A model generated the notes under the pieces. The model searched no databases and was not told the DNA's origin. It was given only the letters and a program-made list of their open reading frames with translations. Position numbers and translations under genes: made by a program. Of a stretch of 43,652 bases of DNA, positions 1-13,756 are shown one piece after another. The stretch is from a virus, in the UHGV virus genome UHGV-0122704; one strand, written 5' to 3'. Each line of letters starts with the position of its first letter. The first letter of the stretch is position 1.

Positions 1-686
1 TCCCTATCTATAGGGAGTGCCTAGCTTATGACAACGTACGCTCTGGCTTTAACTGTTCGTACGGTGGTGGCTACGTTTATGACTGCGAGGCTCACGGTAG
101 CCAGAATGGTGTGCGAATCAACGGGGGCCGTGTTAAAGGCGGTCGGTACACGCGCAACTCCAGCTCTCACATCTTCGTCACTAAGGATGTGGCTGAGACA
201 GCGCAGACATCCCTGGAGATTGATGACGTGAGCATGCGCTACGACGGTACCGGAAGAGCTGTGTACTTCCACGGGACTATGGGCATTAACCCTACCATGG
301 TATCTATGTCCAATAATGACATGACCGGTCACGGTGTGTCTTGGGCATTACTGAGTGGTTATACTGTGCAGCCTACGCCTCCGCGCATGTCCAGGAACTT
401 ACTGGACGACACAAGCATTCGCGGAGTGGCAACACTGGTTGCGGGTGAGGCTACGGTCAACGCTCGTGTACGCGGAAACTTTGGCAGCGTAGCTAACTCC
501 TTCAAGTGGGTGTCTGAGGTCAAGTTGACGCGGTTAACCTTTCCTTCTAGTGCTGGGGCCTTGACGGTTACTGGCGTAGCACAGAACCAGGATGTACCTA
601 CACCTAATCCGGACCTAAACAGCTTCGTGATTAGGAGTAGTAACGCAGCGGATGTATCCCAGGTAGCCTGGGAGGTGTATCTCTAA
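1..686 (+). CDS. Tailspike / putative capsule depolymerase, C-terminal part (5'-truncated by window start; probable continuation of 42383..43652)
   Basis: Frame with codons at 3,6,9... is open from base 3 to the TAA at 684..686. It is in phase with the ORF truncated at 43652 if the window ends are joined. Gly/Ser/Thr/Asn/Val-rich sequence typical of beta-helix tailspikes. Confidence 0.6.
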   Translation, partial: PIYRECLAYDNVRSGFNCSYGGGYVYDCEAHGSQNGVRINGGRVKGGRYTRNSSSHIFVTKDVAETAQTSLEIDDVSMRYDGTGRAVYFHGTMGINPTMVSMSNNDMTGHGVSWALLSGYTVQPTPPRMSRNLLDDTSIRGVATLVAGEATVNARVRGNFGSVANSFKWVSEVKLTRLTFPSSAGALTVTGVAQNQDVPTPNPDLNSFVIRSSNAADVSQVAWEVYL

Positions 687-782
687 GTAGCTCCCTGGGG
701 TATCTCTATGGTATCCCGGGGCACTACTTGGGGTGCACGTCTATACCTGGACCTGAAATTTATTAGACTTTAAAATGAGGAT

Positions 783-1244
783 ATGTCTATGAACATCAAA
801 TATGACACAACATCCCCTAGCTGCTTGGTGTGGCTCAAGGGTAGGCGCGCCGGTGCTCCAGCGGGTACCCGCAACACTCGTGGCTACTGGGTGGTACAGG
901 TATCTGGTAGAAAGATACAGGCACACCGCCTCATCTGGGAACTACACAACGGGCCTATTCCAGACGGATATGTGGTGGACCACATCAACCAAAACCCCGG
1001 TGACAACAGATTAGAGAACCTGCGCTTAGCTACGGTTAGCGAAAACAACTGTAACGCACGCAGGTCTAAGCGGGAACATCCTAGGGGTGTATACTACACT
1101 GGCACCTGCTGGCGCGGGGAGTTCTGGAAGGACGGTAAGCGTTACATGAAGAAGCACAGCTCCTACGAAGTTATCTGCAAGTGGGTACTAGAGAAACGTC
1201 AAGAGCAACACAAGGCCTTCACCCCGGGGCAGGTGTATATCTGA
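783..1244 (+). CDS. HNH homing endonuclease (HNH_3-type with AP2-like C-terminal domain)
   Basis: ATG 783 preceded by GAGGA. Motif HRLIWELHNGPIPDGYVVDHINQNPGDNRLENLRLATVSENN is a textbook phage HNH_3 signature; C-terminal GVYYTGTCWRGEFWKDGKRY resembles an AP2 DNA-binding domain. Confidence 0.85.
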   Translation: MSMNIKYDTTSPSCLVWLKGRRAGAPAGTRNTRGYWVVQVSGRKIQAHRLIWELHNGPIPDGYVVDHINQNPGDNRLENLRLATVSENNCNARRSKREHPRGVYYTGTCWRGEFWKDGKRYMKKHSSYEVICKWVLEKRQEQHKAFTPGQVYI

Positions 1245-1605
1245 AACCAAAAATTATTATACTCGCCCTTGAGCCTCCCTCACCCTCAACGACGCCAATT
1301 GCCCCCATAGGGGGTGCCTAGCGCATAAAAGGAGGGGTGGGGTGGGTGCCTAGACGTCTAGACGGCCCTAGGGCGCTCTCTGAGGTGTGGAGCGCCACGG
1401 CAGCTAAGACCGTGGCTATAGCGGAAGCCTCAGAGGGCCTCAGTGGCTCCCTGCGCTGCGCTGGGGCTATCGCTAGTGCTGCCCCACGGCTTGGCCTGTG
1501 CGTGGCACTGAGTGGCTCCTGTGCGCTCTACGGGGCACTAGGGGCTATCCCTGTGCGCTCCCTGTGGGCCGTAGGGGTGCGCTCTGCCTTGCTTATTTTG
1601 CGCGT

Positions 1606-1662
1606 CCATAGTGGGCCCGCCTAGTGCCTGCATTGTGGGGCCATAGTGGGCCTGCCTAGTGC
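1606..1662 (+). repeat. 22-bp direct repeat pair CCATAGTGGGCC(C/T)GCCTAGTGC
   Basis: 1606..1627 and 1641..1662 are identical except for one base. Confidence 0.85.
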
Positions 1663-1858
1663 GCTGTAGTGCGTCACGGTGCTATCCCTAGTATGCACTA
1701 GGCTATCCACTGGCTATCCCTAGTGCTTTACATTGTGCCGATTATATGCTACGCTGCGCGCTCCCCACTAGGGCGCACATCCTCACCCAACACTATCCCG
1801 GCGCTATCTCTTTGCTATCCCCTTGCTCTTACTTTCATTCGAAAGCTGTCATGAAATG

Positions 1859-1875
1859 ATGTTACAGGAGTAGGA
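1859..1875 (+). promoter_or_regulatory. Copy A of conserved motif ATGTTACAGGAGTAGGA (17-mer core)
   Basis: Exact 17-mer also present at 22584..22600 and 34492..34508; lies in the non-coding terminal region about 190 bp upstream of HNH gene 2067. Confidence 0.6.
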
Positions 1876-2066
1876 GGGTTTTAGGGCACTATATACACAC
1901 TACTTACTACTACTCACTAGTAGTCACTAGTATCCCCTAGTAATGCCCTGTATGACTGACCGTAGGGAGGGAAGCATTACCTAGAATCTTGTAACCTCCG
2001 CTCCTATCCCTCCGGGATATCGTCGCTATGGTTACGCTACTAATCACTATGTAAGGAGATATTGTT

Positions 2067-2483
2067 GTGGCTAGAACATTTAAGATTGTGGTTGATAAGG
2101 AAGGTTATCCAGTGATTAATGGTGCTGGGCCTGAGTATGTGAATAAGCGAGGTAAGAGAGACTATAAGACTGTGGCGCTGCATAGGGCCGTGGTTATGGA
2201 TGCTCTGGGAATCACTAGCTACGGTTCTGGCTATCACGTACATCACTGTGACAGTAACCGCCTTAACTGTGACTTCAATAACCTGATACTGGTTAGCGCT
2301 GACACTCACCGGGCCATACACTTAGCACAGATTCAGGAAGGGAGATGCTTCACAAAGGATGAGTTATTGGCTAGTCCTGAGTACGATACTAACTGGCGAG
2401 AGTTCGACGTGACTTATGGGGACTACAATAGTTTACTGCACGCAGACCTTTGGGGGTCTGCTTACTCTTTTTGCTCCCAGTGA
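2067..2483 (+). CDS. HNH endonuclease
   Basis: GTG start 8 nt after AAGGAG (2053..2058). Motif YHVHHCDSNRLNCDFNNLILVSADTHRAIH fits an HNH nuclease core. Confidence 0.75.
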   Translation: MARTFKIVVDKEGYPVINGAGPEYVNKRGKRDYKTVALHRAVVMDALGITSYGSGYHVHHCDSNRLNCDFNNLILVSADTHRAIHLAQIQEGRCFTKDELLASPEYDTNWREFDVTYGDYNSLLHADLWGSAYSFCSQ

Positions 2484-2503
2484 TAAAAAGTTTAAAAAAG
2501 TAC

Positions 2504-2533
2504 TTGCTTCTTTTGGTTCAATAGGGCTATAGT
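2504..2533 (+). promoter_or_regulatory. Candidate sigma70 early promoter (-35 TTGCTT, 18-nt spacer, -10 TATAGT) with A-rich upstream tract
   Basis: TTGCTT 2504..2509, TATAGT 2528..2533, preceded by AAAAAGTTTAAAAAAG; sits in the 600-bp non-coding leader ahead of the early genes. Confidence 0.45.
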
Positions 2534-2635
2534 TCAATCACCGGGAGGCACTGAGGCGCTAACCGGGGCAGAGTCGGGAGATTCAGCCGGATTAAAGCTA
2601 GATAGTGTGAAGGGTTAGACACTCAATAAAAAGAG

Positions 2636-2664
2636 TTGACACCGCGAAGAACATAAGCTAGATT
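2636..2664 (+). promoter_or_regulatory. Candidate sigma70 early promoter (-35 TTGACA, 17-nt spacer, -10 TAGATT)
   Basis: Consensus -35 TTGACA 2636..2641; -10-like TAGATT 2659..2664. Confidence 0.5.
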
Positions 2665-2704
2665 GAATCCCGAAGTAAGCAGTAAGGCAGTAAGAAATAA
2701 ACGC

Positions 2705-2733
2705 TTGACAAGTTCTGATTCACTGAGTAACTT
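2705..2733 (+). promoter_or_regulatory. Candidate sigma70 early promoter (-35 TTGACA, weak -10 TAACTT)
   Basis: Consensus -35 TTGACA 2705..2710; the -10 is poor, so this is the weakest of the three tandem candidates. Confidence 0.35.
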
Positions 2734-3083
2734 AGATAGCGAACAAGGCAAGGATAACCACTCTAGGGCGCAAGGATGTGTGTCCCGTCGGATTAGGCTA
2801 GACGTTAAAAATGACCTCTTAAAGGTTTAGTAGTAAGCTGGTTTGCGGGGAGGCCCAGTACCTTGACTGGTACGTTGACGACCCACCCCTAGACAATCAG
2901 TTAAAGAGTAAACGTGCCGGACGTTATCACCGGGGTTCTGAGACAAACCACACTGTCGAGGCGAGAGCAGCTCGCTCCTCTGAATCGAGGGAACAAGGCG
3001 CGGAGTGTATCCCGCAAAGAGCATATAACATAGCGCAGCAGTAACAAGGTTGCGCTAGATTATGTTCTCTGAGAGGTAAGAGT

Positions 3084-3281
3084 ATGCGCAAATCAAAGCG
3101 TTTAGCATTACGGCGGAATATGCAATTATCACTGAATCCCACCGACGACGTGCCGCTTACTGTGAAGCCTAGCAAACAAGGGTTGAGCAGTGAGCACAGG
3201 GTGAGGGGAAAGCAAAAACAAAAGGGCAGTAGCAGGCAGCCATCTGGATGGCCTACTGTTAACTCCCAATTTGGTCGATAA
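3084..3281 (+). CDS. Hypothetical early protein, small and strongly basic (65 aa)
   Basis: ATG 3084 preceded by GAGAGG; first ORF after the early promoter cluster; Lys/Arg-rich. Confidence 0.5.
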   Translation: MRKSKRLALRRNMQLSLNPTDDVPLTVKPSKQGLSSEHRVRGKQKQKGSSRQPSGWPTVNSQFGR

Positions 3282-3287
3282 TTACAG

Positions 3288-3317
3288 CCTATAGCATCCT
3301 ACGGGGTGCTATGTGAA
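3288..3317 (+). promoter_or_regulatory. Conserved intergenic stem-loop motif, copy 1 (CCTATAGCATCCTACGGGGTGCTATGTGAA)
   Basis: 27/30 identical to 4004..4033. Stem ATAGCA/TGCTAT plus CC/GG around a 4-nt loop; no T-run follows. Confidence 0.6.
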
Positions 3318-3352
3318 GTAATTACCTAAACAACCAATCAAAGAGGTGCATT

Positions 3353-3928
3353 ATGACCCATTCAACTGGTAAAGTATTCAAGCTCACCGCTGCGGGCAGC
3401 ATTCGTAAAGCGCTGGGCGACGTAGTGGAAGCAAAGCGCAACATCACTATTAGCGCGCTCTTCCACGGCCTGATTAGCAGCAACGTTTCCTGGGCTATGG
3501 ATATGCAGCGCAGCGATGCCGCGGACTTCGATATGGTGCTGCGTACGCTGCTGCCTATCAAGTTCAACAAGGAGTCCGGCAAATACGAATTCAACGCGAA
3601 GAAGTGCTATGCGTCTGCTGAGAAGCTGGGCATCGAACTGGACACTATGCGTCTGGACTATAAACAAGCTGACAAGCAGGAGCGCGAAGTAATTGTAGCC
3701 AGCTTCTATAGCTCCTGTATGGCCCTGTACGCTGCCGAAGCGGAGCAGGTAAAGAATGACGCGCTGGATGCCGATGCAGTGCGCTTGCAAGCGCTGGGGC
3801 GCGTTAAAAACGCTATCAAGAAGGCAAAAGAGACTGGTGTAAGCGACGCTGACCTCGTGTATATGCTGGTATCGCAGGGCGTGGATGTACGCGCTGTACT
3901 GGACGCAACTTTGAAGGCGGCGGCATGA
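3353..3928 (+). CDS. Hypothetical early protein (191 aa) with host-optimal codon bias, probably abundantly expressed
   Basis: ATG 3353 preceded by AAGAGG. Strong preference for CTG/CGT/AAC/TTC/ATC codons like the capsid gene. No recognisable domain. Confidence 0.7.
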   Translation: MTHSTGKVFKLTAAGSIRKALGDVVEAKRNITISALFHGLISSNVSWAMDMQRSDAADFDMVLRTLLPIKFNKESGKYEFNAKKCYASAEKLGIELDTMRLDYKQADKQEREVIVASFYSSCMALYAAEAEQVKNDALDADAVRLQALGRVKNAIKKAKETGVSDADLVYMLVSQGVDVRAVLDATLKAAA

Positions 3929-3996
3929 GCGTAGAATTCATGGTTATCATAACGGCGGTGGTGCTGTTATTTGTAGTGGCGGGCGAATATCTCTAG
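3925..3996 (+). CDS. Possible small hydrophobic peptide (23 aa, MSVEFMVIITAVVLLFVVAGEYL)
   Basis: ATGA start/stop overlap with the upstream gene; single predicted TM helix. Too short to support strongly. Confidence 0.3.
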   Translation: MSVEFMVIITAVVLLFVVAGEYL

Positions 3997-4003
3997 TAGC
4001 AAG

Positions 4004-4033
4004 CCTATAGCGTCCTGCGGGGCGCTATGTGAA
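4004..4033 (+). promoter_or_regulatory. Conserved intergenic stem-loop motif, copy 2 (CCTATAGCGTCCTGCGGGGCGCTATGTGAA)
   Basis: Stem ATAGCG/CGCTAT carries a compensatory A-T to G-C change relative to copy 1; lies just upstream of gene 4046. Confidence 0.6.
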
Positions 4034-4045
4034 TGCAACTGGCGT

Positions 4046-4279
4046 ATGGGGTTTCATATGAAAGCAATACTGGTCTATCCGGGCCATGAACTCTGGCCCG
4101 TGTGGTGCAATCGGGTATACGCAGAATACAACTACACTGTGGTCATATTCTCTGACAAAGACACTAATCAGGAATCCCCTTTAGAATTTGTGGATACCTA
4201 CACCGAAATGGCTGCCCGCACTGTGCTGGACGCCGTGAATCTTGGCATTATCAACGACTGGAGACAACTTTATGGTTAA
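4046..4279 (+). CDS. Hypothetical early protein (77 aa; alternative start ATG 4058)
   Basis: ORF in the early gene array; weak RBS, start uncertain. Confidence 0.45.
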   Translation: MGFHMKAILVYPGHELWPVWCNRVYAEYNYTVVIFSDKDTNQESPLEFVDTYTEMAARTVLDAVNLGIINDWRQLYG

Positions 4280-4535
4280 TGTATTCAACATCATTGTGAC
4301 CAGCGCTATGCTGGTGCTGGGCAACGACATAAACAACCCAATCCCATACTGCACTGTGCAGTTGCAGCAACCGGCAACGCAGGAGCCGCAGCCGCGCCCT
4401 GAGTACGACCTATTTGAAGACCCCGAGGGTGGTTGCAAAGAGCTGGGCGCACGTATCCTTGCGGCGGTGCAGGAGCAGTACCAGGACGCTGCGGTAACGC
4501 TCACGGTGGATGGTAAGAGCAATAACGAAATTTGA
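4272..4535 (+). CDS. Hypothetical early protein (87 aa) with hydrophobic N-terminus
   Basis: ATG 4272 preceded by GGAGAC and overlapping the upstream stop; N-terminal VFNIIVTSAMLVLG could be a TM helix. Confidence 0.45.
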   Translation: MVNVFNIIVTSAMLVLGNDINNPIPYCTVQLQQPATQEPQPRPEYDLFEDPEGGCKELGARILAAVQEQYQDAAVTLTVDGKSNNEI

Positions 4536-4544
4536 GGTGGGGGC

Positions 4545-4724
4545 ATGCACGGAAAGAATCCTGAAACGCTGCTGATGCGTAAGCAGCAACCAACAATCGA
4601 CGGGCTGGCGCGGGAGTACAACGCGAAGGCAGCGCTGCGCCAGCACTATGAGAAACAAGCAAAGCGCCTGGGTATGACCCTGCGCGGCTACTGCTTCCGG
4701 TTTAATGTGCGGGGTGTAGTATGA
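4545..4724 (+). CDS. Hypothetical early protein (59 aa)
   Basis: ATG 4545 preceded by GAGGTGGGGG; ATGA overlap with the next gene suggests translational coupling. Confidence 0.45.
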   Translation: MHGKNPETLLMRKQQPTIDGLAREYNAKAALRQHYEKQAKRLGMTLRGYCFRFNVRGVV

Positions 4725-4939
4725 GCAAGCAGGACATTTATGACGTATATAAGCGCCCTAATGGGTTTCTTTACCGGGTACCTCTATTTAGTCCACTGCA
4801 CGCCCTCGCAGAATTCTATGCAGAGGAGACTAGACTGTGGTTGCCGTCCAGTCACACAGTTGGCGGGGTGGTAATGCTAAGTTGTAGCACCCTTGTGGCC
4901 CGCAACGTGGTATTCAAGGATAGCGCATGCTCACAGTAG
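4721..4939 (+). CDS. Hypothetical early protein (72 aa)
   Basis: ATG 4721 in an ATGA overlap with the upstream ORF. Confidence 0.45.
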   Translation: MSKQDIYDVYKRPNGFLYRVPLFSPLHALAEFYAEETRLWLPSSHTVGGVVMLSCSTLVARNVVFKDSACSQ

Positions 4940-5271
4940 ACGAAACAGCGCTGCTGTGCTGGCGTCTGCTGGAAACGCAGGGCAAGTGCGGTTGCACTTG
5001 GGAAACATTCAAAGAGGTTCCTAATGAACTCAAGCAAATCGTGCCAGTTGAGCGTCGATTACTCCGAGTTAGAAAAGAGGATATTGGCACTGTTCTCACA
5101 ACCTATCGAGAGTACACTGAGTCTGCCGCGCGGAAGCTGCAAGAGCACATTGCATTCGATGTGGTTGCAGCACTACGGCGGAATGGATACCGCGGAGCTT
5201 TTAAGCAATTTAGAGCCGCAGTCCGCGCCTATTATAAGCAGCAACAACTCTCCGCGTGGTACGCACGCTGA
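4927..5271 (+). CDS. Hypothetical early protein (114 aa)
   Basis: ATG 4927 preceded by AAGGA; basic, helix-rich sequence. Confidence 0.45.
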   Translation: MLTVDETALLCWRLLETQGKCGCTWETFKEVPNELKQIVPVERRLLRVRKEDIGTVLTTYREYTESAARKLQEHIAFDVVAALRRNGYRGAFKQFRAAVRAYYKQQQLSAWYAR

Positions 5272-5311
5272 ACTCTTAGTGCATGACGAAGTTCTATTAA
5301 CTCGGGAGCAA

Positions 5312-6994
5312 ATGAAAATGCAAGAAACTAACACAGCACCTATCGAATGGAAAGTAGTGTTACCGGAAGGTGCAAACGCACTGCCGATTAAAGAATCAAT
5401 GTATTCCAGCGGTGATTACTGGACCCCGTTCCAGGACTTGCAAATGCAAGGGGAGGACCATCCCCACACTGAGGGTCCGCTGCAGGTGCTTATGGGTCTC
5501 CGCACTGTCAGTGCGCACACTCCAGGCTTAGAGGTGACTATAGGCGGGGCACTGCACCCAGAGTATCGCGAATCAACGATGACGCTCGGCCCGTTGCAAA
5601 AGGTGGACCTGTACCGGTCCGGAACTTTCTGCGAACTCTTTGAACCGGTGCGAATCACCATAGACAGCAAGTTCTGGGAACGCCGCCGCGACTTCTATGA
5701 GGGCGAGGATGTAGTGGTTGAGCGCGTAGTTGCTTGCGTCGAAGAATTCACAGGTTACAAGGTGCACAAGCAGGCCGTGCAGTTATTTGAGCGCATCATG
5801 CTTGCACCAGAAGAGCAGCAGCGCCGCTTATACACTGGCTACGATTACGGCCGCCACACCCGCGATGGCAACTTAGCTGCGCTGCTCATGAAGTTGCACG
5901 GCTTCGTAGTGTCTAGATTCGCCGTGCCTTTGGGCTTTGGTTTCCGCAACGGCGAACCTATCGTGATGCTGGGGCAGCCGCGGATGCACAAGGACTTCGC
6001 AGCAGTTACTGAGTACCGCTGCGTAGAGATGCGCGTAGGTAAGTGGCTCGCTAACTACTACGGAAATGGTGTGGACTTCCGCGATGCTATCGAAGACCTC
6101 AAGGCTATGAACGTAGACCCTACAACGTACCTGTGCAAGACCGAGCAGGAATGGTACGACGCCTACGAGAATGGCCCGGGTAGCTGCATGAGCGGGTACT
6201 CATTTGAGCATAGCTCTGTGCGGACGTACGCTACCACCAGCCACGGGTTGCCGGATAATGGGCTGCGCCTGTTCATCCAGTACACCGGGGAGCTGTTCGG
6301 CGACGATTTCGAAGTGCAGGCACGGGCAATCGTTAACACAGAAACTAACGAGTACGTCCGCGCTTACGGCAACGCTGCGGATGCAATCCTGCGGGGGCAT
6401 GGGTACACCAAAAACATTGAATGTCTCGAAGGGGTAATGCTGGCGCGAATACCGCACCCAACATACAACGGCGCAGTGCTGATGCCATACCTAGATAGCA
6501 GCCAGTGCGGCGTAGATGAGTATGGGGATGATGCCTTTGTAATCCGTGATGCTTATGAGTACGAGGCACAAGACTCAGAAGGATACATCTACGTAGGCAC
6601 TGAGTCTGCTCGGTGCTGCTGCTGTGAATGTCGCTACTCTGTAGATGACATGCAGGAGACCGCAGATGGTGATATGGTCTGCGACGGCTGCGTAGAAGAA
6701 GGGGATTTTGTGTACGTAGTTGGGCGTGATGGTCTGCATAATCGCTGGAGCTGCACCTGGTCTGATTACCACGACGCCTATGTATACGACGAGGACATAG
6801 AGCGCTGCGAAGTAGAGGGTGTAGTGCACGACCAAGAGGAACTGGTGTTTGCACAGGACCGGCAAGTGCTTATTGAGCACGCAGAAGAACACCCAGTGCA
6901 CGGGTTAATTCTCACTGAGCATGCAGCTGATTGCTTGGGAGAGAAGTACCTGGGCAACGATGAAGATGAAGAAGAAGCAGAGGAGGCAGCTTAA
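5312..6994 (+). CDS. Large hypothetical early protein (~560 aa) with a Cys cluster and an acidic C-terminal tail
   Basis: Track ORF 5024..6994 trimmed to ATG 5312 (GGGAG RBS), which avoids overlapping 4927..5271. Contains CCCCECRYSVDD...CDGC and ends NDEDEEEAEEAA. No family recognised. Confidence 0.6.
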   Translation: MKMQETNTAPIEWKVVLPEGANALPIKESMYSSGDYWTPFQDLQMQGEDHPHTEGPLQVLMGLRTVSAHTPGLEVTIGGALHPEYRESTMTLGPLQKVDLYRSGTFCELFEPVRITIDSKFWERRRDFYEGEDVVVERVVACVEEFTGYKVHKQAVQLFERIMLAPEEQQRRLYTGYDYGRHTRDGNLAALLMKLHGFVVSRFAVPLGFGFRNGEPIVMLGQPRMHKDFAAVTEYRCVEMRVGKWLANYYGNGVDFRDAIEDLKAMNVDPTTYLCKTEQEWYDAYENGPGSCMSGYSFEHSSVRTYATTSHGLPDNGLRLFIQYTGELFGDDFEVQARAIVNTETNEYVRAYGNAADAILRGHGYTKNIECLEGVMLARIPHPTYNGAVLMPYLDSSQCGVDEYGDDAFVIRDAYEYEAQDSEGYIYVGTESARCCCCECRYSVDDMQETADGDMVCDGCVEEGDFVYVVGRDGLHNRWSCTWSDYHDAYVYDEDIERCEVEGVVHDQEELVFAQDRQVLIEHAEEHPVHGLILTEHAADCLGEKYLGNDEDEEEAEEAA

Positions 6995-8055
6995 TGTTCT
7001 TGAATCCGCACGGGATTGATATGCAGCTGCTCTTGCAGATACTGCAAACGCACCGGCCTAGCTGGGGTAGCACTAAGTGGTTCGAGCCGCTGCTTATGCA
7101 GTCGCTACAGGCGCTGGGTAGTGGTATGCACTACGTAAAGGACAAGCACGGGAACTACTTCGTGCTGGTGGGGGACTCAGAGCAAAGTGACGTAGCGTTT
7201 ACGTCTCATCTCGACACAGTGGCACGACCAACCAGCGCTGCGCCGGACGTCGGCTGCACTAACAAGGGCGTGCTGTTCGTAAAGAATCCGCAACAAGCTG
7301 ACTGCTTGGGCGCCGACTGCGGCGCCGGTATCTACCTGATGCTGGAGATGCTGCGGCGCGGCGTGCACGGACGCTACTGCTTCTTCGTGGATGAAGAGGT
7401 AGGCTGCGAGGGTAGCGCTGCATCGGTCAAGGATGACTCTGGATTTTGGACTGGGGTCAAGGCGATGATTAGCTTCGACCGCCGCGGCGACGGTATCATT
7501 ACGCATCAAAGGTATATGCGCTGCTGCTCTGACACCTTTGCCAAGACCCTAGCAGAGCGCCTGGGACGCACGGAGCAGCACTTGCAGAAGGGTGTTTATA
7601 CTGACTCGGCTGAGTTCGTTGGCATCATTCCTGAGTGCACCAACGTCGGTGTAGGGTACATGCACGAGCACACCCCGGATGAGGTGCTGGACCTGAACAT
7701 ACTGGGCCAGGTGCTTGAGCGGGTACTACAAGACGGCACGTTCTCGCACCTCCCTATTGAGCGGGACCCGGCAGTAGCAGAGCCAGACCTATGCCAGTGG
7801 CTCGCTGCATCGACGCTCAGTTTACGGCAGCCGTGGGATATGCCGCCGGACGAGGACCCGCAGTTACTGGCCGCGTTCCGGGAAGTATCGCAGCTTTCTA
7901 AACAACAACTGGTTAGCTGGGTACAGGAGAATCCAGAGAAGGCGGCGGAGTACATAATGGTGTTCTCCGATTACGGCTTTAAAGAAGAACTGATTGAACT
8001 AGGCACCCGAGTCGTAGAAGACTGGGGCGGATACGATAATATTGTGGAGGGTTGA
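6994..8055 (+). CDS. Putative Zn-metallopeptidase-like protein (M20/M28/M42-like ligand pattern)
   Basis: Ordered candidate metal ligands HLD (TSHLDTV), D (GADCGAG), EE (FVDEEVG), D (FDRRGDG), H (MHEHT) match the co-catalytic zinc exopeptidase pattern. Motif-level inference only. Confidence 0.5.
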   Translation: MFLNPHGIDMQLLLQILQTHRPSWGSTKWFEPLLMQSLQALGSGMHYVKDKHGNYFVLVGDSEQSDVAFTSHLDTVARPTSAAPDVGCTNKGVLFVKNPQQADCLGADCGAGIYLMLEMLRRGVHGRYCFFVDEEVGCEGSAASVKDDSGFWTGVKAMISFDRRGDGIITHQRYMRCCSDTFAKTLAERLGRTEQHLQKGVYTDSAEFVGIIPECTNVGVGYMHEHTPDEVLDLNILGQVLERVLQDGTFSHLPIERDPAVAEPDLCQWLAASTLSLRQPWDMPPDEDPQLLAAFREVSQLSKQQLVSWVQENPEKAAEYIMVFSDYGFKEELIELGTRVVEDWGGYDNIVEG

Positions 8056-8057
8056 TT

Positions 8058-8504
8058 ATGTCTAAACTTTTTAAAGTAGGTGATAAGGTTCAGCGCATCA
8101 ATAAGATTGAAGGTAAGACCGTGCGCGGCGAGATAGTCACTAAGGGGCCTGGCCTCTATATAGACATCAAGCTAACCGAAGGCGCAGGGATTCATTATGC
8201 CGGGGATATCTATGGCGGCTCTGCCGACTTCTGGCAGCTAATCGAGGAGGCGGACGAGCTGCCACCGGTTCCGTCTAGTGTAGCATATTTAAACACTAAA
8301 CGAGACCCAGGAAACGACCAGCGGCTGGTATTAGAAAAGGACAGCGAGACTAACGAAGGACTACTATACATCGGAATAGTGCCTAGAAAAGGCAGCACCC
8401 GGGCAGAGCGAGAGATTGGTATTAATATGAGCCCCGATTCAGCCCTGCAGTTGGCACATGACATTCGTCGAATGGCTATGAAAGTTAAGCGAGAGATTCA
8501 GTAA
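8058..8504 (+). CDS. Hypothetical protein (148 aa)
   Basis: ATG 8058 preceded by GGAGGG; track start TTG 8052 is a less likely alternative. Confidence 0.5.
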   Translation: MSKLFKVGDKVQRINKIEGKTVRGEIVTKGPGLYIDIKLTEGAGIHYAGDIYGGSADFWQLIEEADELPPVPSSVAYLNTKRDPGNDQRLVLEKDSETNEGLLYIGIVPRKGSTRAEREIGINMSPDSALQLAHDIRRMAMKVKREIQ

Positions 8505-9289
8505 TGGACCAGCCCTGGCTTAGAGCGTGCAAGCGCCTGGCCGTTGGGCAGAGGGCGCGCTTTCGGTGCTGCGGCAGGGACGCCGCCGGGGTGCTCTACA
8601 ATAACCCGGATGCCTGGGAATATTATTGCCACCGCTGCAAACAGGTGGGCAAGGAGCACAAGCAGTACCAGCGCATACAGTTACAGGAAGAGCCGAGGGT
8701 GCAGCCCGCTGCACCTGCAGATGCAATTTGCATTAGCCAAGCGCCTGCGGAAACGCAGAGTTTTATTTACGGATTCCTGACCACAAAGGGAATCATGCCT
8801 GAAATGGTGGAGGATGCAGAATGGAGCAAAGAGAAACAGCGGATAATCTTCCGTGTCGGAAGCGCTGCTCTGGGCCGTGCAGTGCATGCTCGGCAGCAAC
8901 CGAAGTGGGTAATGTACGGCCAGCCAATAGCTTTCGCTGTCGCGGCACCTGCCGTAGCACCGGCTGTAGCTGCGGCCGCGCCTCTAAAGGTCGTGCTCAC
9001 CGAGGACTTACTCTCAGCCCGGAAGATACAGCACGCAGTTACGAGTTACAGTGCATTGAACGTGCAGGCTATAGCTATGCTGGGTACACGCTTGCCCACG
9101 CCGCTGAGGGCTTGGCTGATTCAGAATCGCCCGGAAGTGATTCTGATGCTGGATAATGACCCGGCTGGACATGCTGGGGTAGCAGCGGCGCGCCGAGCAC
9201 TGCGTCCGTTCATGCAGTGCCGTGAGCATTACTTCGCTGCGGACCCGAAGGATGCAGAAATCAAAGAGATTCTGGAGGCTTTACAATGA
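8504..9289 (+). CDS. DNA primase (zinc-ribbon + TOPRIM)
   Basis: N-terminal Cys cluster RFRCCGRD...YYCHRCKQ; TOPRIM-like VILMLDNDPAGHAG with an upstream acidic residue; sits directly before the helicase. Confidence 0.8.
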   Translation: MDQPWLRACKRLAVGQRARFRCCGRDAAGVLYNNPDAWEYYCHRCKQVGKEHKQYQRIQLQEEPRVQPAAPADAICISQAPAETQSFIYGFLTTKGIMPEMVEDAEWSKEKQRIIFRVGSAALGRAVHARQQPKWVMYGQPIAFAVAAPAVAPAVAAAAPLKVVLTEDLLSARKIQHAVTSYSALNVQAIAMLGTRLPTPLRAWLIQNRPEVILMLDNDPAGHAGVAAARRALRPFMQCREHYFAADPKDAEIKEILEALQ

Positions 9290-9480
9290 GTATGGGTATC
9301 TGGGTTTTAATCATGGCGATTAATGGCAGTGCGGTTAGCGACACAGACTTCGCTGCGCTAACCACTCAAGAGTTCACAACGGGGGCCGCCTGCAACAAGG
9401 CGGCCAAGGCGTTCGAAGAGAAGTTTGACACATTCAGGGTGTATACCGCTAAAGCAATCTGTGTTCCTAAGGAGGTTTAA
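9286..9480 (+). CDS. Hypothetical protein (64 aa)
   Basis: ATGA overlap with the primase stop; fills the primase-helicase gap. Confidence 0.45.
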   Translation: MSMGIWVLIMAINGSAVSDTDFAALTTQEFTTGAACNKAAKAFEEKFDTFRVYTAKAICVPKEV

Positions 9481-10761
9481 TTGGACCTAATAGTAGTTAA
9501 GGCAATGTGCACGCAGAAGGTATGGAACCGACTGCGTGAACAGATACCCAAATCCATGCTAGCGCCGGACACAGCTAACCTACTAGACTGGGTGGGGTTG
9601 TACTGGAACACGTACCCGGAGCACCAGGAGGTTCAGTGGGATGCAATGCAGAGCATGCTAAACCTCCGGGCGGGGCACCTGTCCCGGGAAGAGCGGGTAA
9701 TCATGGACGAGCTTATGCGGGGAGTACAAGCCGTGCCACAGGATTCTGTGGTGGGGATTGTCCAGACCCTGAACGAGCTGGCCTACAGCGGGGAGGTAGC
9801 AGCGCTGACGCAGCGCTATCAAGACGGCGAGGAGATTGATTACCTGCTGGAAATGAAGCACCTACAGCGCAAGTACGGTGATGGCGCTGCGGTGCATGAT
9901 TCGCTGCTTGAATGGGAGAGCGGTAGTGTTGACGAGATACTTGCCGCGACTGATGAGAGCGGCGGTCTTAAACTGGGCGTGTTCGAGCAACTCGCTAGCA
10001 ACATCCGAGGTCTACGTGGCGGGGACTGCATCGCAGTGGCTGCTCCTGTGGACTCTGGTAAAACTAGCCTGCTTGCTGCTATTGCTGTGGACTTTGCTGA
10101 GCAGATGCAGCAGCAGCCGGAAGTATACGGGGACCGCCCGATTCTCTGGCTGGTTAACGAGGGTCCGGCGACGCGTACAGTGCCGAGGGTATATCAAGCG
10201 GCGCTGCACTGGACTCTGGCGGAGATTAAGGACCGGCACAGTAAGCAAGAGTTCGTGCCAGCCTACCTCAAGAAAGTAGGCAGGGCTGACCGGATTCGCG
10301 TTAAGGCTGCGCACTCCTTGACGATGGCGCAGATATCCACGCTCATGGAGGAGATGCGCCCCGCGGTAATCATCATTGATATGGTGGCGAATATCCGTGG
10401 CGGTACTATGGAGAGTGAGCACCAGAACCTAGAGGCGAAATGGCAGGAGCTGCGCATCCTTGGGTGCGAGAACGACTGCGCTATCGTAGGGACTATGCAG
10501 CTTTCACTCGAAGGTTACAACATGTTGTTCCCGCCGCTCACCGCTATGAAGCAGAGCAAGATTGGTGTACAGGGTGCCTTGGACTTGGCGATTATGATGG
10601 GATGCTTGGACAGGAACGAGCAGCCGCACATGCAAAACGTCCGTGGTATCAGTACTCCGAAGAACAAGATGGCACTGTCTGGTAAAGAGTCGCTACTGCA
10701 ATTCGAGGTGGGATTCGAGCCGGGTCGTTGCCGCTTTGACGAGGGCCAGATTAACCGGTGA
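9481..10761 (+). CDS. Replicative DNA helicase (DnaB-like / T7 gp4 helicase-domain-like)
   Basis: Walker A AAPVDSGKTSLL and Walker B-like AVIIIDMV. TTG start at 9481 sits 5 nt after a strong AAGGAGG; an in-frame ATG at 9506 is the alternative. Confidence 0.85.
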   Translation: MDLIVVKAMCTQKVWNRLREQIPKSMLAPDTANLLDWVGLYWNTYPEHQEVQWDAMQSMLNLRAGHLSREERVIMDELMRGVQAVPQDSVVGIVQTLNELAYSGEVAALTQRYQDGEEIDYLLEMKHLQRKYGDGAAVHDSLLEWESGSVDEILAATDESGGLKLGVFEQLASNIRGLRGGDCIAVAAPVDSGKTSLLAAIAVDFAEQMQQQPEVYGDRPILWLVNEGPATRTVPRVYQAALHWTLAEIKDRHSKQEFVPAYLKKVGRADRIRVKAAHSLTMAQISTLMEEMRPAVIIIDMVANIRGGTMESEHQNLEAKWQELRILGCENDCAIVGTMQLSLEGYNMLFPPLTAMKQSKIGVQGALDLAIMMGCLDRNEQPHMQNVRGISTPKNKMALSGKESLLQFEVGFEPGRCRFDEGQINR

Positions 10762-10767
10762 CTTCCC

Positions 10768-10790
10768 TAGCGCCTTCTATGAGGGCGCTA
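10768..10790 (+). promoter_or_regulatory. Stem-loop (TAGCGCC / GGCGCTA, 9-nt loop) related to the early hairpin motif
   Basis: Shares GGCGCTATGT with copy 2; lies between the helicase and the small ORF before the DNA polymerase. Confidence 0.45.
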
Positions 10791-10813
10791 TGTAGGTACA
10801 CTAGGAGGCTACT

Positions 10814-10969
10814 ATGCTTAAACCGTCAGACATTAACTACCTCGACGAAGAGGTAATCAAGGCGTACGCTGCGTCTGCAGGTACTTTCCGTAAACGATTC
10901 GCGCTGGACAGCAGCCAGCTGATTGTGCATCTAGCTATCAATAAAGCTCGGAGGGCTAAGTGGAAATGA
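10814..10969 (+). CDS. Hypothetical small protein (51 aa)
   Basis: ATG 10814 preceded by a near-perfect AGGAGG; its stop overlaps the DNA polymerase start in ATGA. Confidence 0.5.
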   Translation: MLKPSDINYLDEEVIKAYAASAGTFRKRFALDSSQLIVHLAINKARRAKWK

Positions 10970-13377
10970 CAACCAGCATAATGCACCTTGACCTGGAGAC
11001 GGAGAACCATGAATATTACGGCTCTAAAGCAAGCCCATACTGCCCTGACAACTATGTTGTTGAGTCCGCATGGCGTATCGACACGACACAGGCTGACGGT
11101 ACTACCACTGTTGGCGCGACTCAATCGGTGCGCTTCAATTCAAGAGCTGATTTCTTGGCGGGAAACAGTGCAGCAGAAGGCTGCCGGTGGTTTCATATCC
11201 CCGAGGATTGCTGGCTTATTGTTGCGCACAACGCAGCCTATGAGATTTCTTGGTTTCTCACGTACCAGCGGCAGCAGTTTGAGGCCTTCCTCAAGCGCGG
11301 TGGCAGGGTGTTCTGCACAATGCACGGGGAATACATCGCCTCGGACTTTCAGAGCATGTATCCGTCTCTGGACGAGACGGCTCCTAAGTACGGTGGTACG
11401 CACAAAGTAGACGGGGTTAAGATTCTATGGGAGCAGGGTGTGTTAACCTCCCAGATCGACCCGATACTGCTGCATGACTACCTGGTTAACGGGGACATCC
11501 CGAACACGGCCCTGTGCTTCTACGGCCAGTGCGCTACGTTCGCCCAGCGCAATCAGATGCAGTACGTGTGGGAACGTATGGATGCCTTGCTAGCTTGGGC
11601 GTACTGCGAGTGGTTCGGCCTGTTCGTGAATATGCCAATTGCACGCAAGAACCAGGAGGAGCAGGAGCAGCGCATCCGTGAGATTAAGCAGGAACTGCAG
11701 CAGTACATCCCGAAGGACTTGCCGGAGACGCTGGACTTCAATTTCGGGTCGGACTTTCATATGTCTGCACTGGTGTACGGCGGGCCTATAAAGTACCGCA
11801 AGAAGGTCCCCTATGACCCTCCGCAGTACGTCAAGGCCGACTACTATAAGTACGAGGACGAAGATGGTGCGCACACCTATATACCTGTACACGACACGCA
11901 CATGCAAGAACTTCAAACGGAAGGCGGATGGTGGCGTGTAGTGACATATCGTGCGGGTAAGAACAAGGGGCTCCCTAAAGTATTCCGCCTCGATACCGAG
12001 GAAGAGAAACTTAAATGGGAAGACGACCTTTACTTCTGCCCGGGCCTAGTGAACATCCAGGAGCTTCCGGAAGTTATCCGGGAGAAGTACGCAGAGCGCG
12101 GGGAGTTCCGACAGGCGCGCACCCTGCAGGATGGCACCCCTGTGTATAGCACCAGCACTGATGCAATGGAGGCGCTGGCTCGCCAAGGGTTCGAGTTCTG
12201 TAAGTTGGTGAACGAACTGGCGGCGCTGGAGAAGGATACCGGCACTTACTATTTGCGAGAAGTACTGGACGCAGGAGGTAATGTAAAAGAGCGGAAGGGG
12301 ATGCTGCAGTATGTAATCCCGGAGCGTCCCGATGGTTCCGGCATCATTCACCACCGGCTGAATACTTGCGCCACCGTAACCGGGCGCTTGAGTAGCTCTA
12401 ACCCGAACCTGCAGAACCTACCCCGCCCGGATGAGGATGGCGACGGTGTGGCTAAATCCAAGGTGAAGCAGGTGTTCACCAGTAGATTCGGGGACAACGG
12501 ACGTATCACTGAGGTTGACTACTCGGCACTGGAAGTGGTTATGTCCTGTGTACACACGGGTGACAAGAAACTGCTGGGACTGCTGCAGAGTGGTACGGAT
12601 ATGCACTGTTACCGCCTAGCTTTCCGCGAGGGATTACCGTATGAAGAAGTATATGAGCGCTGCCACAACAAGAAGCACGAGCTGCATCCGCTTTGGAAGG
12701 CAATGCGTACAGGTATTAAGGCTCCTAGCTTTGCAGCCCAGTATGGCGCTACGGCTAAGGGGATTGCGTTTGCTACTGGATGTACGGTGGAATTTGCACA
12801 GGCTTTCTTGGACAACGAGGCTGCGCTGTTCCCGCAAACAATTGGCTTCCGCGCTGTTGTCAAGGAAGAGGTAGAACGTACCGGTGCGGAGGGGCGCATG
12901 TACCGGGAGCAGGCTGACGACGGCAGCTACCGAATCTACCGCATTGGGACGTGGACCAGCCCAGCCGGTGCCCGCTACAGTTTCCGTCAGAAAGAGCAGT
13001 GGAAAGAGGTTGTGCCTGGGCAGCGTAAGCAGAAGGTAATGGACTACAAGGAAACAGAGATGGCTAACTACTGGTGCCAGGGGGAAGCATTCTTCCTGAT
13101 GGCGGTAGCCGCCGGTATGGTTCTGCGTGCACTCCTGGCCCGTGACTGGTTCGACAATCAGGTGTGCCTGATTACGAACGTGCACGATGCGTTGTATCTG
13201 GACAGCGCCAACCCGGAGGTTGGACGTGAGGCGAGCCTGCTGGTTAAGCAGTGCATGGAGGATGCACCTAAGCGTATTCACCAGCTCTGGCCTAACTACG
13301 GCATCATTGGTGAGGTCCCGTTCCCAGCAGAGGCTGAGATGGGTACGAGTATGTACAGTAAGGAGAAGGTAGAATGA
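10966..13377 (+). CDS. DNA polymerase (family A, T7 gp5-like)
   Basis: N-terminal 3'-5' exo motif MHLDLETEN; polymerase motifs RLNTCATVTGRLSSSNPNLQNLP, K...FAAQYGA and VHDALYLD. ATG 10966 preferred over the track GTG 10960. Confidence 0.95.
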   Translation: MTTSIMHLDLETENHEYYGSKASPYCPDNYVVESAWRIDTTQADGTTTVGATQSVRFNSRADFLAGNSAAEGCRWFHIPEDCWLIVAHNAAYEISWFLTYQRQQFEAFLKRGGRVFCTMHGEYIASDFQSMYPSLDETAPKYGGTHKVDGVKILWEQGVLTSQIDPILLHDYLVNGDIPNTALCFYGQCATFAQRNQMQYVWERMDALLAWAYCEWFGLFVNMPIARKNQEEQEQRIREIKQELQQYIPKDLPETLDFNFGSDFHMSALVYGGPIKYRKKVPYDPPQYVKADYYKYEDEDGAHTYIPVHDTHMQELQTEGGWWRVVTYRAGKNKGLPKVFRLDTEEEKLKWEDDLYFCPGLVNIQELPEVIREKYAERGEFRQARTLQDGTPVYSTSTDAMEALARQGFEFCKLVNELAALEKDTGTYYLREVLDAGGNVKERKGMLQYVIPERPDGSGIIHHRLNTCATVTGRLSSSNPNLQNLPRPDEDGDGVAKSKVKQVFTSRFGDNGRITEVDYSALEVVMSCVHTGDKKLLGLLQSGTDMHCYRLAFREGLPYEEVYERCHNKKHELHPLWKAMRTGIKAPSFAAQYGATAKGIAFATGCTVEFAQAFLDNEAALFPQTIGFRAVVKEEVERTGAEGRMYREQADDGSYRIYRIGTWTSPAGARYSFRQKEQWKEVVPGQRKQKVMDYKETEMANYWCQGEAFFLMAVAAGMVLRALLARDWFDNQVCLITNVHDALYLDSANPEVGREASLLVKQCMEDAPKRIHQLWPNYGIIGEVPFPAEAEMGTSMYSKEKVE

Positions 13378-13595
13378 GTATAAAGTCTGGCAGTGTTGTG
13401 GAGTTGATGGACCTGGGGCCTGAGCCGATAGACCCGCGGTATGCAGCATACTTCGCCCCGGGTACGAGGCACACGGTCATGTTCTTCGACCCGGTTACTG
13501 GGGAGATAGAACTAAGTTATCCTGGACTAGTAGTAAGTAGACCGGGGGATGGTGTTACCTTCTTCCCGGGGGAGTACAAGCTTATCGTGGAATAG
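13374..13595 (+). CDS. Hypothetical protein (73 aa)
   Basis: ATGA overlap with the DNA polymerase stop. Confidence 0.5.
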   Translation: MSIKSGSVVELMDLGPEPIDPRYAAYFAPGTRHTVMFFDPVTGEIELSYPGLVVSRPGDGVTFFPGEYKLIVE

Positions 13596-13736: not shown

Positions 13737-13756
13737 ACAACACAAGAGGATACCGA

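What the first reader, a model, noticed from the sequence alone, without database searches (positions are those of the whole stretch)
1245..2066. Repeat array in the 820-bp non-coding region: probable genome terminus and packaging signals
The region between the last late gene and the early region has no credible ORF. It holds at least 8 copies of (G)CTATCC(C), a 22-bp direct repeat pair (1606..1627 and 1641..1662), many CTAG-containing short repeats and motif copy A. T7-type genomes carry arrays of short repeats in their direct terminal repeats for concatemer processing, so this is the most likely site of the physical ends. The terminal-repeat boundaries cannot be read from a single collapsed copy.
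Basis: partly seen in the sequence, partly recalled or inferred. Interest (0 to 1): 0.55.

Follow-up and report, generated by a model that had tools for sequence, protein, structure and literature searches.

The report
Phage genome ends and left-end promoter
This non-coding stretch is the junction where the two ends of a KP34-like Klebsiella phage genome meet in the circularised assembly (one collapsed ~307-bp terminal repeat, flanking short-repeat arrays and a known phage promoter), which is ordinary and already documented in close relatives.

Summary
Window 1245-2066 is non-coding and full of strand-specific short repeats. The window is a complete Drulisvirus (KP34-like) genome, circularly permuted and opened inside the tailspike gene.

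Alignment to relatives with annotated or experimentally mapped ends places the collapsed direct terminal repeat (DTR) at about 1278-1584 (307 bp). The relatives include fHe-Kpn01, KP34, KpV48, KpV475 and AttikonH4. The DTR therefore covers only the left 40% of the flagged region.

Most GCTATCC copies and the 22-bp repeat pair lie just right of the DTR. T7's CCTAAAG array sits in the same position relative to its own repeat.

"Motif copy A" (1857-1872, TGATGTTACAGGAGTA) is the experimentally defined KP34 RNA-polymerase strong promoter, placed as T7 phiOL is.

No reads for this phage were available. A packaging role for the repeat arrays remains unproven.

One very conserved block (1692-1772) is unexplained. 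Both DTR boundaries also carry motifs shared across Autographiviridae genera. Overall this is a known feature of low novelty.

The parts
1232..1277 (+). Conserved non-coding segment immediately left of the DTR, on the right-unique side of the concatemer junction (GGTGTATATCTGAAACCAAAAATTATTATACTCGCCCTTGAGCCTC). It is a candidate pacB-like recognition segment. Its first bases overlap the 3' end of the HNH ORF.
   Evidence: 72-87% identity to 16 junction-spanning relatives with no gaps. Nearly identical to the sequence preceding the right DTR of fHe-Kpn01 and AttikonH4. The function is inferred.
1278..1584 (+). Direct terminal repeat, present as one collapsed copy (307 bp). The predicted virion DNA runs 1278..43652 and then 1..1584, about 43,959 bp.
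   Evidence: The annotated DTRs of KP34, KpV48, KpV475, Pokalde_001, AttikonH4, JKT6 and Dlv622 map to 1277/1279 .. 1584/1586. The experimentally mapped fHe-Kpn01 ends map to 1278 and 1584. Many records start or end exactly there.
1278..1330 (+). Conserved left-terminal box: CCTCAC..., then the palindrome CCCCCATAGGGGG at 1302-1314, 25 nt from the predicted end.
   Evidence: 80-87% identity across relatives. The same CCCC(C)RTAGG element lies at nt 26-29 from the left end in T7, gh-1, SP6, phiKMV, PS3 and KP34. It occurs once on the + strand of the whole window.
1332..1430 (+). Hypervariable interior of the DTR. It contains a G-tract (1332-1347) and the AGACGTCTAGACG palindrome (1352-1364).
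   Evidence: Gapped in 42-94% of relatives over most of this stretch (9% in the 1352-1371 bin). Annotated DTR lengths in relatives range from 192 to 311 bp.
1552..1600 (+). Conserved right-boundary box: ...CTGTGGGCCGTAGGGGTGCGCTC | TGCCTTGCTTATTTTG, with the boundary between 1584 and 1585.
   Evidence: 80-94% identity. The same |TGCCTY context follows the DTR in LIMElight and LKA1.
1598..1662 (+). Imperfect 30-nt direct repeat pair (1598-1627 / 1633-1662). It lies outside the DTR.
   Evidence: Copy number varies among relatives; Dlv622, for example, has several extra units.
1681..1829 (+). GCTATCC arrays right of the DTR, with copies at 1681, 1702, 1713, 1793 (CTATCC), 1803 (GCTATCT) and 1814. 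Spacing is 11 or 21 nt and all copies are on the + strand.
   Evidence: All Drulisvirus relatives have 3-9 CTATCC copies in their first 900 nt, mostly right of the DTR. Similar GGCTATC or GTATCC arrays lie right of the DTR in LIMElight and PS3.
1692..1772 (+). The most conserved non-coding block, of unknown function. It contains a candidate extended -10 sigma-70 promoter, TTTACA-N17-(TGc)TACGCT, at 1727-1755.
   Evidence: 87-100% identity to 16 relatives, with 1752-1771 invariant. Relaxed promoter scan; the stricter tool scan did not report it. Unique in the genome. No Rfam hit.
1857..1872 (+). KP34-type phage RNA-polymerase strong promoter TGATGTTACAGGAGTA. The expected start is G at 1873, rightward.
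   Evidence: Identical to KP34 nt 475-490, which was shown to drive KP34 RNAP transcription in vitro (PMC6834552). Other window copies are at 22582-22597 and 34490-34505. 92-97% conserved.
1899..1940 (+). 10-bp-period repeats (ACTACTYACT / TCACTAGTA), downstream of the promoter start.
   Evidence: Copy number varies in relatives.

Best explanation
The region is the concatemer junction of a T7-type (Autographiviridae, genus Drulisvirus) phage genome whose assembly was circularised.

The two copies of the DTR collapsed into one at about 1278-1584. To its left (1232-1277) lies the end of the right-unique DNA. To its right (1585-2066) lies the gene-free leader of the left end.

During packaging, the T7-type terminase (genes at 38416-38718 and 38718-40574) would cut replicated concatemers at the two outer DTR boundaries, and the DTR would be duplicated by DNA synthesis. 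Every virion would then carry the DTR at both ends; in fHe-Kpn01 the ends are blunt.

The signals most likely reside in the conserved boundary boxes. These are YCTCAC...CCCCCATAGGGGG at the left and GTGCGCTC|TGCCTT at the right. The DTR interior is free to vary.

The strand-specific GCTATCC and CTAGTG arrays at 10-11-bp spacing, right of the DTR, correspond in position to T7's CCTAAAG array. They are most plausibly protein-binding or architectural sites, for example for the small terminase. This step is inferred, not shown.

The promoter at 1857-1872 fires rightward into the early region, as T7 phiOL does.
For: Identity of the phage and permutation of the assembly:
- 250-260 phage records, mostly Klebsiella Drulisvirus, match the region.
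- The tailspike ORF reads through from the window end into the window start, so the assembly is circularly permuted.

Position of the ends:
- Seven of nine annotated DTRs align to 1277/1279-1584/1586.
- The fHe-Kpn01 ends were mapped by restriction digests, ligation plus Sanger sequencing, and PhageTerm, and are blunt (PMC7291057). They align to 1278 and 1584.
- About 14 of the 60 records listed begin or end exactly at the 1278 equivalent.

Packaging machinery:
- T7-type terminase large subunit (PF22530), T7 gp18-like DNA packaging protein (PF11123) and single-subunit RNAP are all present.

Comparison with T7:
- T7 has CCCCCATAGGGGGTACCTA at nt 26-44 of its 160-bp repeat.
- T7 has CCTAAAG 11 times on the + strand and 0 times on the - strand, 3 inside the repeat and 8 to its right.

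Wider conservation:
- The right-boundary context |TGCCTY is shared with LIMElight and LKA1.

Promoter:
- The KP34 strong promoter is experimentally defined and has a copy at KP34 nt 475-490, identical to window 1857-1872.

Non-coding status:
-.
Against: - There are no reads or virion DNA for this phage, so its own ends are inferred only by homology.
- Two annotated relatives deviate. The KPPK108.1 DTR ends at the equivalent of 1508, and the NNA-G4 DTR starts at the equivalent of 1312 and ends at 1573. Boundary placement may therefore vary, or some annotations are imprecise.
- DNA folding around both boundaries is no more stable than in shuffled sequence.
- Nothing here shows that the arrays bind terminase. 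Their copy number varies freely among relatives, which would also fit neutral slippage.
Confidence: 0.88

Rival explanations
1. The short-repeat arrays are functionless products of replication slippage or recombination in a tolerated spacer. Only the boundary boxes and the promoter are functional. The ends would still be here.
For: Copy number and spacing of the GCTATCC, CTAGTG and ACTAC units differ freely among close relatives. The array segments are the least conserved parts of the region.
Against: - The motif itself is kept in every Drulisvirus examined, always on the + strand (7:0 here).
- It recurs as GGCTATC or GTATCC arrays in the same position in the other genera LIMElight and PS3.
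- The 10-11-bp phasing suggests binding on one face of the helix.
Confidence: 0.3
2. The repeats are iterons of a replication origin, or a promoter-primed origin like the T7 phiOL secondary origin, rather than packaging elements.
For: There are direct repeats in helical phase next to an AT-richer segment and a phage promoter (1832-1872). From established T7 biology, recalled rather than tested here, T7 phiOL can act as a secondary origin.
Against: The flanking genes are HNH endonucleases, not initiator genes. T7-type phages prime replication from RNAP transcripts rather than from iteron-binding initiators (established knowledge).
Confidence: 0.1
3. The physical ends are elsewhere, or the genome is packaged by a headful or cos mechanism, and this region is only an early regulatory or promoter region.
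For: No direct end data exist for this phage. The region does contain a phage promoter and a candidate host promoter.
Against: The terminase is T7-type. Both DTR boundaries of experimentally mapped relatives are conserved here. The strong host-type promoters lie further right, at 2504-2733.
Confidence: 0.03

Closest known systems
Direct terminal repeats of Drulisvirus (KP34-like) Klebsiella phages, e.g. KP34 (216 bp), fHe-Kpn01 (222 bp, experimentally mapped) and AttikonH4 (297 bp)
   Same: Orthologous sequence with the same left-end and right-end boundary sequences, the same downstream GCTATCC arrays and the same left-end phage promoter.
   Different: The DTR interior is longer here (307 bp) because of a variable segment at 1332-1430 that most relatives lack. 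Only JKT6, at 311 bp, is similar in length. Two HNH endonuclease genes flank the junction here, and they are only sporadically present in relatives.
Bacteriophage T7 concatemer junction: 160-bp terminal repeat, flanking CCTAAAG repeat arrays, and the phiOL promoter
   Same: Same overall architecture. The shared elements are:
- a terminal repeat beginning YCTCAC, with CCCCCATAGGGGGTRCCTA about 26 nt from the end;
- a strand-specific heptamer array mostly just right of the repeat;
- a phage RNAP promoter about 250-270 nt right of the repeat;
- host promoters further right.
   Different: The repeat unit differs (GCTATCC at 11-nt spacing here, CCTAAAG at 13-nt spacing in T7), as does the promoter sequence. 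No phiOR-like phage promoter was found left of the right DTR. Beyond the left-end box there is no nucleotide homology.
KP34 RNA polymerase strong promoter T(A/G)ATGTTACAGGAGTA (Lu et al. 2019, PMC6834552)
   Same: Window 1857-1872 is identical to the KP34 nt 475-490 copy. The other two copies sit in the same genomic positions as in KP34: after the RNAP gene, and inside the large internal-virion-protein gene.
   Different: Activity was not tested for this phage. Several relatives carry a diverged left-end copy, TGAAGTAACCGGAGTA.

Membership tests
T7-type (Autographiviridae) short-direct-terminal-repeat genome end / concatemer junction | An exact direct repeat is present at both ends of the linear virion DNA. 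| not testable with these tools
   The window holds a single collapsed copy: CCCCCATAGGGGG and TGCCTTGCTTATTTTG each occur once. No reads or virion DNA were available.
T7-type (Autographiviridae) short-direct-terminal-repeat genome end / concatemer junction | The phage encodes a T7-type large terminase, a gp18-like small subunit and a single-subunit RNA polymerase. | tested here: met
   PF22530 (E 1.3e-30) at 38718-40574, PF11123 (E 1.7e-19) at 38416-38718, and PF00940 (E 6.6e-90) at 20107-22575.
T7-type (Autographiviridae) short-direct-terminal-repeat genome end / concatemer junction | The sequence is homologous, at both boundaries, to terminal repeats whose ends were mapped experimentally. 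| tested here: met
   The fHe-Kpn01 ends (PMC7291057) align to window 1278 and 1584. Seven of nine annotated DTRs agree within 1-2 nt.
T7-type (Autographiviridae) short-direct-terminal-repeat genome end / concatemer junction | The junction lies in the non-coding gap between the end of the late (structural/lysis/tailspike) genes and the early region of a co-linear genome. | tested here: met
   The tailspike ends at 686, early host-type promoters lie at 2504-2733, and no conserved ORF lies between apart from two HNH insertions.
T7-type (Autographiviridae) short-direct-terminal-repeat genome end / concatemer junction | Strand-specific arrays of a short repeat lie in and next to the terminal repeat, as in T7. 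| tested here: met
   GCTATCC/CTATCC occurs 7:0 (+:-) here. T7 CCTAAAG occurs 11:0, with 3 copies inside the repeat and 8 to its right.
Drulisvirus (KP34-like phages) | Genome-wide nucleotide similarity and gene order match KP34-like phages, including the KP34-type promoters. | tested here: met
   Hits are dominated by Drulisvirus records at 72-98% identity. Three strong-promoter copies and the weak promoter sit at the KP34 positions.
Iteron-type replication origin | Direct repeats lie adjacent to a gene for an initiator protein that binds them. | tested here: not met
   The adjacent genes are HNH_3 endonucleases. No initiator-like gene flanks the region, and binding itself could not be tested.
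Structured non-coding RNA | The sequence matches a known RNA family or folds significantly better than shuffled sequence. | tested here: not met
   No Rfam match at E<=1 in 600-3400. The folding z-score for 1755-1960 is -1.08.

The most novel reading that the evidence does not exclude
Two short boundary motifs may be the actual terminase cleavage and recognition signals of Autographiviridae. They appear to be conserved across subfamilies.

- Left motif: YCYC... followed by a C-tract/CCCC(C)RTAGG(GG) element at a fixed 24-29 nt from the left terminus. The full element is present in T7, gh-1, SP6, phiKMV, Kakivirus PS3 and Drulisvirus; T3, LKA1, LIMElight and Syn5 have only a C-tract (or a related palindrome) there.
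- Right motif: |TGCCTY at the right DTR boundary, present in Drulisvirus, LIMElight and LKA1.

If so, the physical ends of collapsed or metagenomic assemblies could be predicted from sequence alone. In the same reading, the phased GCTATCC-type arrays right of the DTR would be the binding platform of the small terminase.
Probability: 0.3. Interest if true: 0.45.

Novelty: already known. Interest (0 to 1): 0.15.

Why it matters
The practical value is for annotation. The genome should be re-opened at 1278 and reported with a 307-bp DTR, giving a virion DNA of about 43,959 bp. The region 1245-2066 should be annotated as DTR plus left-end leader plus phage promoter, not as hypothetical ORFs as in some relatives.

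Biologically it confirms that this phage follows the T7-type packaging scheme. The cross-genus conservation of the boundary motifs and of the TATCC-type arrays is a modest lead towards the still poorly defined DNA signals recognised by T7-type terminases.

Tried and rejected
- **Coding potential.** ORF 1337-1624 has no Pfam hit, and no ORF of 30 aa or more is conserved. Rejected.
- **Known RNA family or stable structure.** There is no Rfam hit. Folding of 1755-1960 as RNA and of both boundary regions as DNA is no better than shuffled sequence. Rejected.
- **Intrinsic terminator at the DTR boundary.** The candidate at 1571-1587 is only a weak G-T-containing hairpin. Not pursued.
- **Block 1692-1772 as a repeated phage promoter.** Its core is unique in the genome. 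Rejected. A relaxed scan gives a possible extended -10 host promoter at 1727-1755, but the stricter tool scan did not report it. Left open.
- **ATAGGGAGTGCCTAGCT at 10-26 as a second copy of the left-end box.** It lies inside the tailspike ORF and has 2 mismatches; 2 of 100 shuffles gave as many matches. Probably chance.
- **HNH endonucleases as end-forming enzymes.** Relatives with the same ends lack them (KP34 at the left, fHe-Kpn01 at the right). Rejected.
- **Literature searches.** Searches for prior descriptions of the CCCCATAGGG box and of conserved T7/SP6 ends found nothing relevant in the held library. This does not show that the box is undescribed, because older T7, T3 and SP6 papers are not in the library.
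- **IMG/VR contig ends.** They did not coincide with the physical ends, so they were used only for conservation analysis.

Full report
**What the window is.** The 43,652-bp window is a complete genome of a KP34-like Klebsiella podophage (Autographiviridae, Slopekvirinae, Drulisvirus).
- Region 1245-2066 matches about 250 phage records, almost all Klebsiella Drulisvirus, at 72-89% identity over most of its length. No record is near-identical across 700-2600.
- The tailspike ORF that starts near 42384 reads without interruption across the window end into 1-686. The sequence is therefore a circularised, arbitrarily opened assembly. Any terminal repeat must be collapsed to one copy.
- The phage encodes a T7-type large terminase (PF22530), a gp18-like packaging protein (PF11123) and a single-subunit RNA polymerase.

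**Checking the observation.**
- CTATCC occurs 7 times on the + strand and never on the - strand within 1245-2066. That is 8.5/kb against 0.23/kb elsewhere, and 0 of 2000 Markov simulations reach 7. With two one-mismatch copies the count is 9.
- The 22-bp pair 1606-1627 / 1641-1662 matches at 21 of 22 positions and is the core of a 30-nt repeat.
- CTAG is nine-fold enriched, with 16 copies.
- Tandem Repeats Finder reports 10-11-bp period arrays at 1681-1719, 1803-1827 and 1901-1932.
- The only ORF of 60 aa or more (1337-1624) has no Pfam match. It spans a segment absent from most relatives. None of six ORFs of 30 aa or more is kept intact in more than 8 of 16 relatives.
- The region is therefore non-coding. 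It is flanked by two HNH_3 endonuclease genes, 783-1244 and 2067-2483.

**Where the ends are.**
- A search with 1278-1584 shows many GenBank records that begin at the nucleotide equivalent to 1278 or end at the equivalent of 1584. Several of them carry terminal-repeat annotation.
- I aligned the left ends of nine relatives with annotated DTRs. KP34 (216 bp), KpV48 (192), KpV475 (243), Kp_Pokalde_001 (247), AttikonH4 (297), JKT6 (311) and Dlv622 (278) all start at window 1277-1279 and end at 1584-1586 (records).
- Two relatives deviate. KPPK108.1 ends at the equivalent of 1508, and NNA-G4 starts at the equivalent of 1312 and ends at 1573.
- The best-documented relative is fHe-Kpn01. Its ends were mapped by restriction digestion, fragment ligation plus Sanger sequencing, and PhageTerm, and found to be blunt (PMC7291057).
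- Its 222-bp DTR is identical at both ends of the record. It begins CCTCACCCTGAACGACGCC (window 1278) and ends ...GGGCGCTC|CGTCTTACCTATTTTG (window ...GTGCGCTC|TGCCTTGCTTATTTTG, 1584|1585).
- The DNA preceding its right DTR is nearly identical to window 1229-1277.
- The collapsed DTR of this phage is therefore most likely 1278-1584 (307 bp), and the virion DNA is about 43,959 bp.

**Anatomy and conservation.** Sixteen independent junction-spanning Drulisvirus contigs from IMG/VR give a clear profile.
- Conserved: 1232-1330 (the pre-DTR segment and the first ~50 nt of the DTR), 1432-1490, 1552-1600 (the right boundary), 1692-1772 (up to 100%) and 1812-1892.
- Hypervariable: 1332-1430 (gapped in up to 94% of relatives), 1490-1550, 1600-1680, 1792-1812 and 1892-1912.
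- So the DTR has conserved ends and a free interior. This explains the 192-311-bp range of annotated DTR lengths in relatives.
They lie just right of it: the 30-nt pair at 1598-1662, GCTATCC copies at 1681, 1702, 1713, 1793, 1803 and 1814, and the 10-bp repeats at 1899-1940.
- Every Drulisvirus left end examined has 3-9 CTATCC copies in this arrangement.

**Motif copy A.**
- The 17-mer ATGTTACAGGAGTAGGA occurs at 1859, 22584 (just after the RNAP gene) and 34492.
- It is the KP34 RNA-polymerase strong promoter T(A/G)ATGTTACAGGAGTA. Lu et al. defined it by 5'-RACE on in vitro KP34 RNAP transcripts and by in vitro transcription assays. They reported copies at KP34 nt 475-490, 22197-22212 and 33721-33736 (PMC6834552).
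- Window 1857-1872 is identical to KP34 475-490, and transcription should start at G1873.
- It lies 273 nt right of the DTR. T7 phiOL lies 245 nt right of the T7 repeat.
- This explains the conserved block 1812-1892.

**Comparison with T7, made on the sequences rather than from memory.**
- The T7 record carries an exact 160-bp repeat at both ends.
- Its left end is TCTCACAGTGTACGGACCTAAAGTTCCCCCATAGGGGGTACCTAAAG. The window's predicted end is CCTCACCCTCAACGACGCCAATTGCCCCCATAGGGGGTGCCTAG.
- The 19-nt element CCCCCATAGGGGGTRCCTA therefore sits at nt 26 in T7 and nt 25 here.
- CCCC[AG]TAGG occurs once on the + strand of the whole window.
- The same element, or a C-tract variant, lies 24-29 nt from the annotated left end in gh-1, SP6, phiKMV, PS3, T3, LKA1, LIMElight and Syn5. 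It is absent only in VP4, whose record has no DTR annotation.
- T7's CCTAAAG heptamer occurs 11 times on the + strand and 0 times on the - strand in the first 520 nt. Three copies are inside the repeat and 8 are just right of it, at 13-nt spacing. GCTATCC here follows the same design.
- At the right boundary, the first unique bases are TGCCTT here, TGCCTT in LIMElight and TGCCTC in LKA1.
- LIMElight has GGCTATC arrays and PS3 has GTATCC arrays right of their DTRs.

**Mechanism.**
- Shown here: the position of the junction, the conserved boundary boxes, the T7-type packaging genes, and the promoter identity.
- Taken from established T7/T3 biology, not tested here: terminase cuts concatemers at the outer boundaries of the single inter-genome repeat, and the repeat is duplicated by DNA synthesis, so both ends carry it.
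- Inferred: the boundary boxes are the cleavage and recognition signals, the conserved 1232-1277 segment is a pacB-like element, and the phased strand-specific arrays are protein-binding or architectural sites. The arrays' variable copy number also fits neutral slippage, so I give that rival 0.3.
- A replication-origin reading gets 0.1, and an 'ends elsewhere' reading gets 0.03.

**Unexplained.** Block 1692-1772 is the most conserved non-coding sequence in the region (1752-1771 is invariant in 16 relatives) and is unique in the genome. It contains a possible extended -10 host promoter, TTTACA-N17-TGcTACGCT, at 1727-1755 that the stricter scan did not report. There is no Rfam match, and the RNA fold of 1755-1960, which covers only the 3' end of the block, is not unusual.

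**Verdict.** The feature is the well-known Drulisvirus terminal repeat and concatemer junction, with a published phage promoter beside it. Novelty is low. The cross-genus boundary motifs and arrays are a modest lead, not a discovery established here.

Noticed in passing
window 42384-43652 joined to 1-686: The tailspike/depolymerase ORF runs off the window end and continues in frame at the window start. The window is a circularly permuted assembly opened inside this gene.
   Followed up: yes
window 783-1244 and 2067-2483: Two HNH_3 (PF13392) endonuclease genes flank the junction on either side. Relatives have them only sporadically (AttikonH4 and KPPK108.1 at the left; KP34 and fHe-Kpn01 lack them), so they look like homing-endonuclease insertions. 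A short similar sequence (CTGAAATTTATTAGAC at about 753-775, against CTGAAACCAAAAATTATTATAC at about 1240-1262) may mark the insertion site.
   Followed up: partly
window 22582-22597, 34490-34505, 22528-22547: Further KP34 RNAP promoters. There are two TAATGTTACAGGAGTA strong copies, one just after the RNAP gene and one inside the 1232-aa ORF 33747-37445. The 'weak' promoter ACTTTGGACATCCGGCAAGT lies inside the RNAP gene.
   Followed up: partly
left ends of T7 (L017), T3 (L019), gh-1 (L023), SP6 (L020), phiKMV (L021), LKA1 (L060), LIMElight (L062), PS3 (L022), Syn5 (L059); window 1302-1320: A C-tract, usually CCCC(C)RTAGG(GG), lies at a fixed 24-29 nt from the annotated left terminus across several Autographiviridae subfamilies. 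It is identical over 18 of 19 nt between T7 and this phage. I could not find it described in the held literature.
   Followed up: partly
window 1584|1585; L062 277|278; L060 298|299: The first unique bases right of the DTR are TGCCTT (this phage and LIMElight) or TGCCTC (LKA1). This suggests a conserved right-boundary cut-site context.
   Followed up: partly
window 1692-1772: This is the most conserved non-coding block (1752-1771 invariant in 16 relatives) and is not explained by the DTR or the phage promoter. It holds a candidate rightward extended -10 sigma-70 promoter at 1727-1755 and a perfect TATAAT on the minus strand (1746-1741) without a good -35.
   Followed up: partly
window 1332-1364: Inside the hypervariable part of the DTR there is a G-tract, GGAGGGGTGGGGTGGG, which is a G11-13 homopolymer in some relatives. 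There is also the palindrome AGACGTCTAGACG, which resembles tandem MetJ 'met boxes' (AGACGTCT). The resemblance is probably coincidental.
   Followed up: no
L001, L006, L007, L009-L011 versus L012, L013 and window 1857-1872: The left-end promoter copy comes in distinct variants among relatives: TGATGTTACAGGAGTA, TGAAGTAACCGGAGTA and TGAAGTTACCGGAGTA. These may reflect co-variation with RNAP specificity or decay of the left-end copy.
   Followed up: no
window 2504-2533, 2636-2664, 2705-2733: A cluster of sigma-70-type early promoters (TTGCTT-18-TATAGT, TTGACA-17-TAGATT, TTGACA-17-TAACTT) lies right of the second HNH gene. They match the promoters annotated in KP34, KpV48 and KpV475.
   Followed up: partly
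window 10-26: ATAGGGAGTGCCTAGCT inside the tailspike ORF resembles the left-end box 1307-1323 with 2 mismatches. Two of 100 shuffles gave as many matches, so it is probably chance.
   Followed up: yes
L006 (KPPK108.1) and L011 (NNA-G4): The annotated terminal repeats of these two records do not match the boundaries shared by the other relatives. In NNA-G4 the conserved left-end box lies about 73 nt upstream of its annotated right repeat. These annotations may be imprecise.
   Followed up: partly
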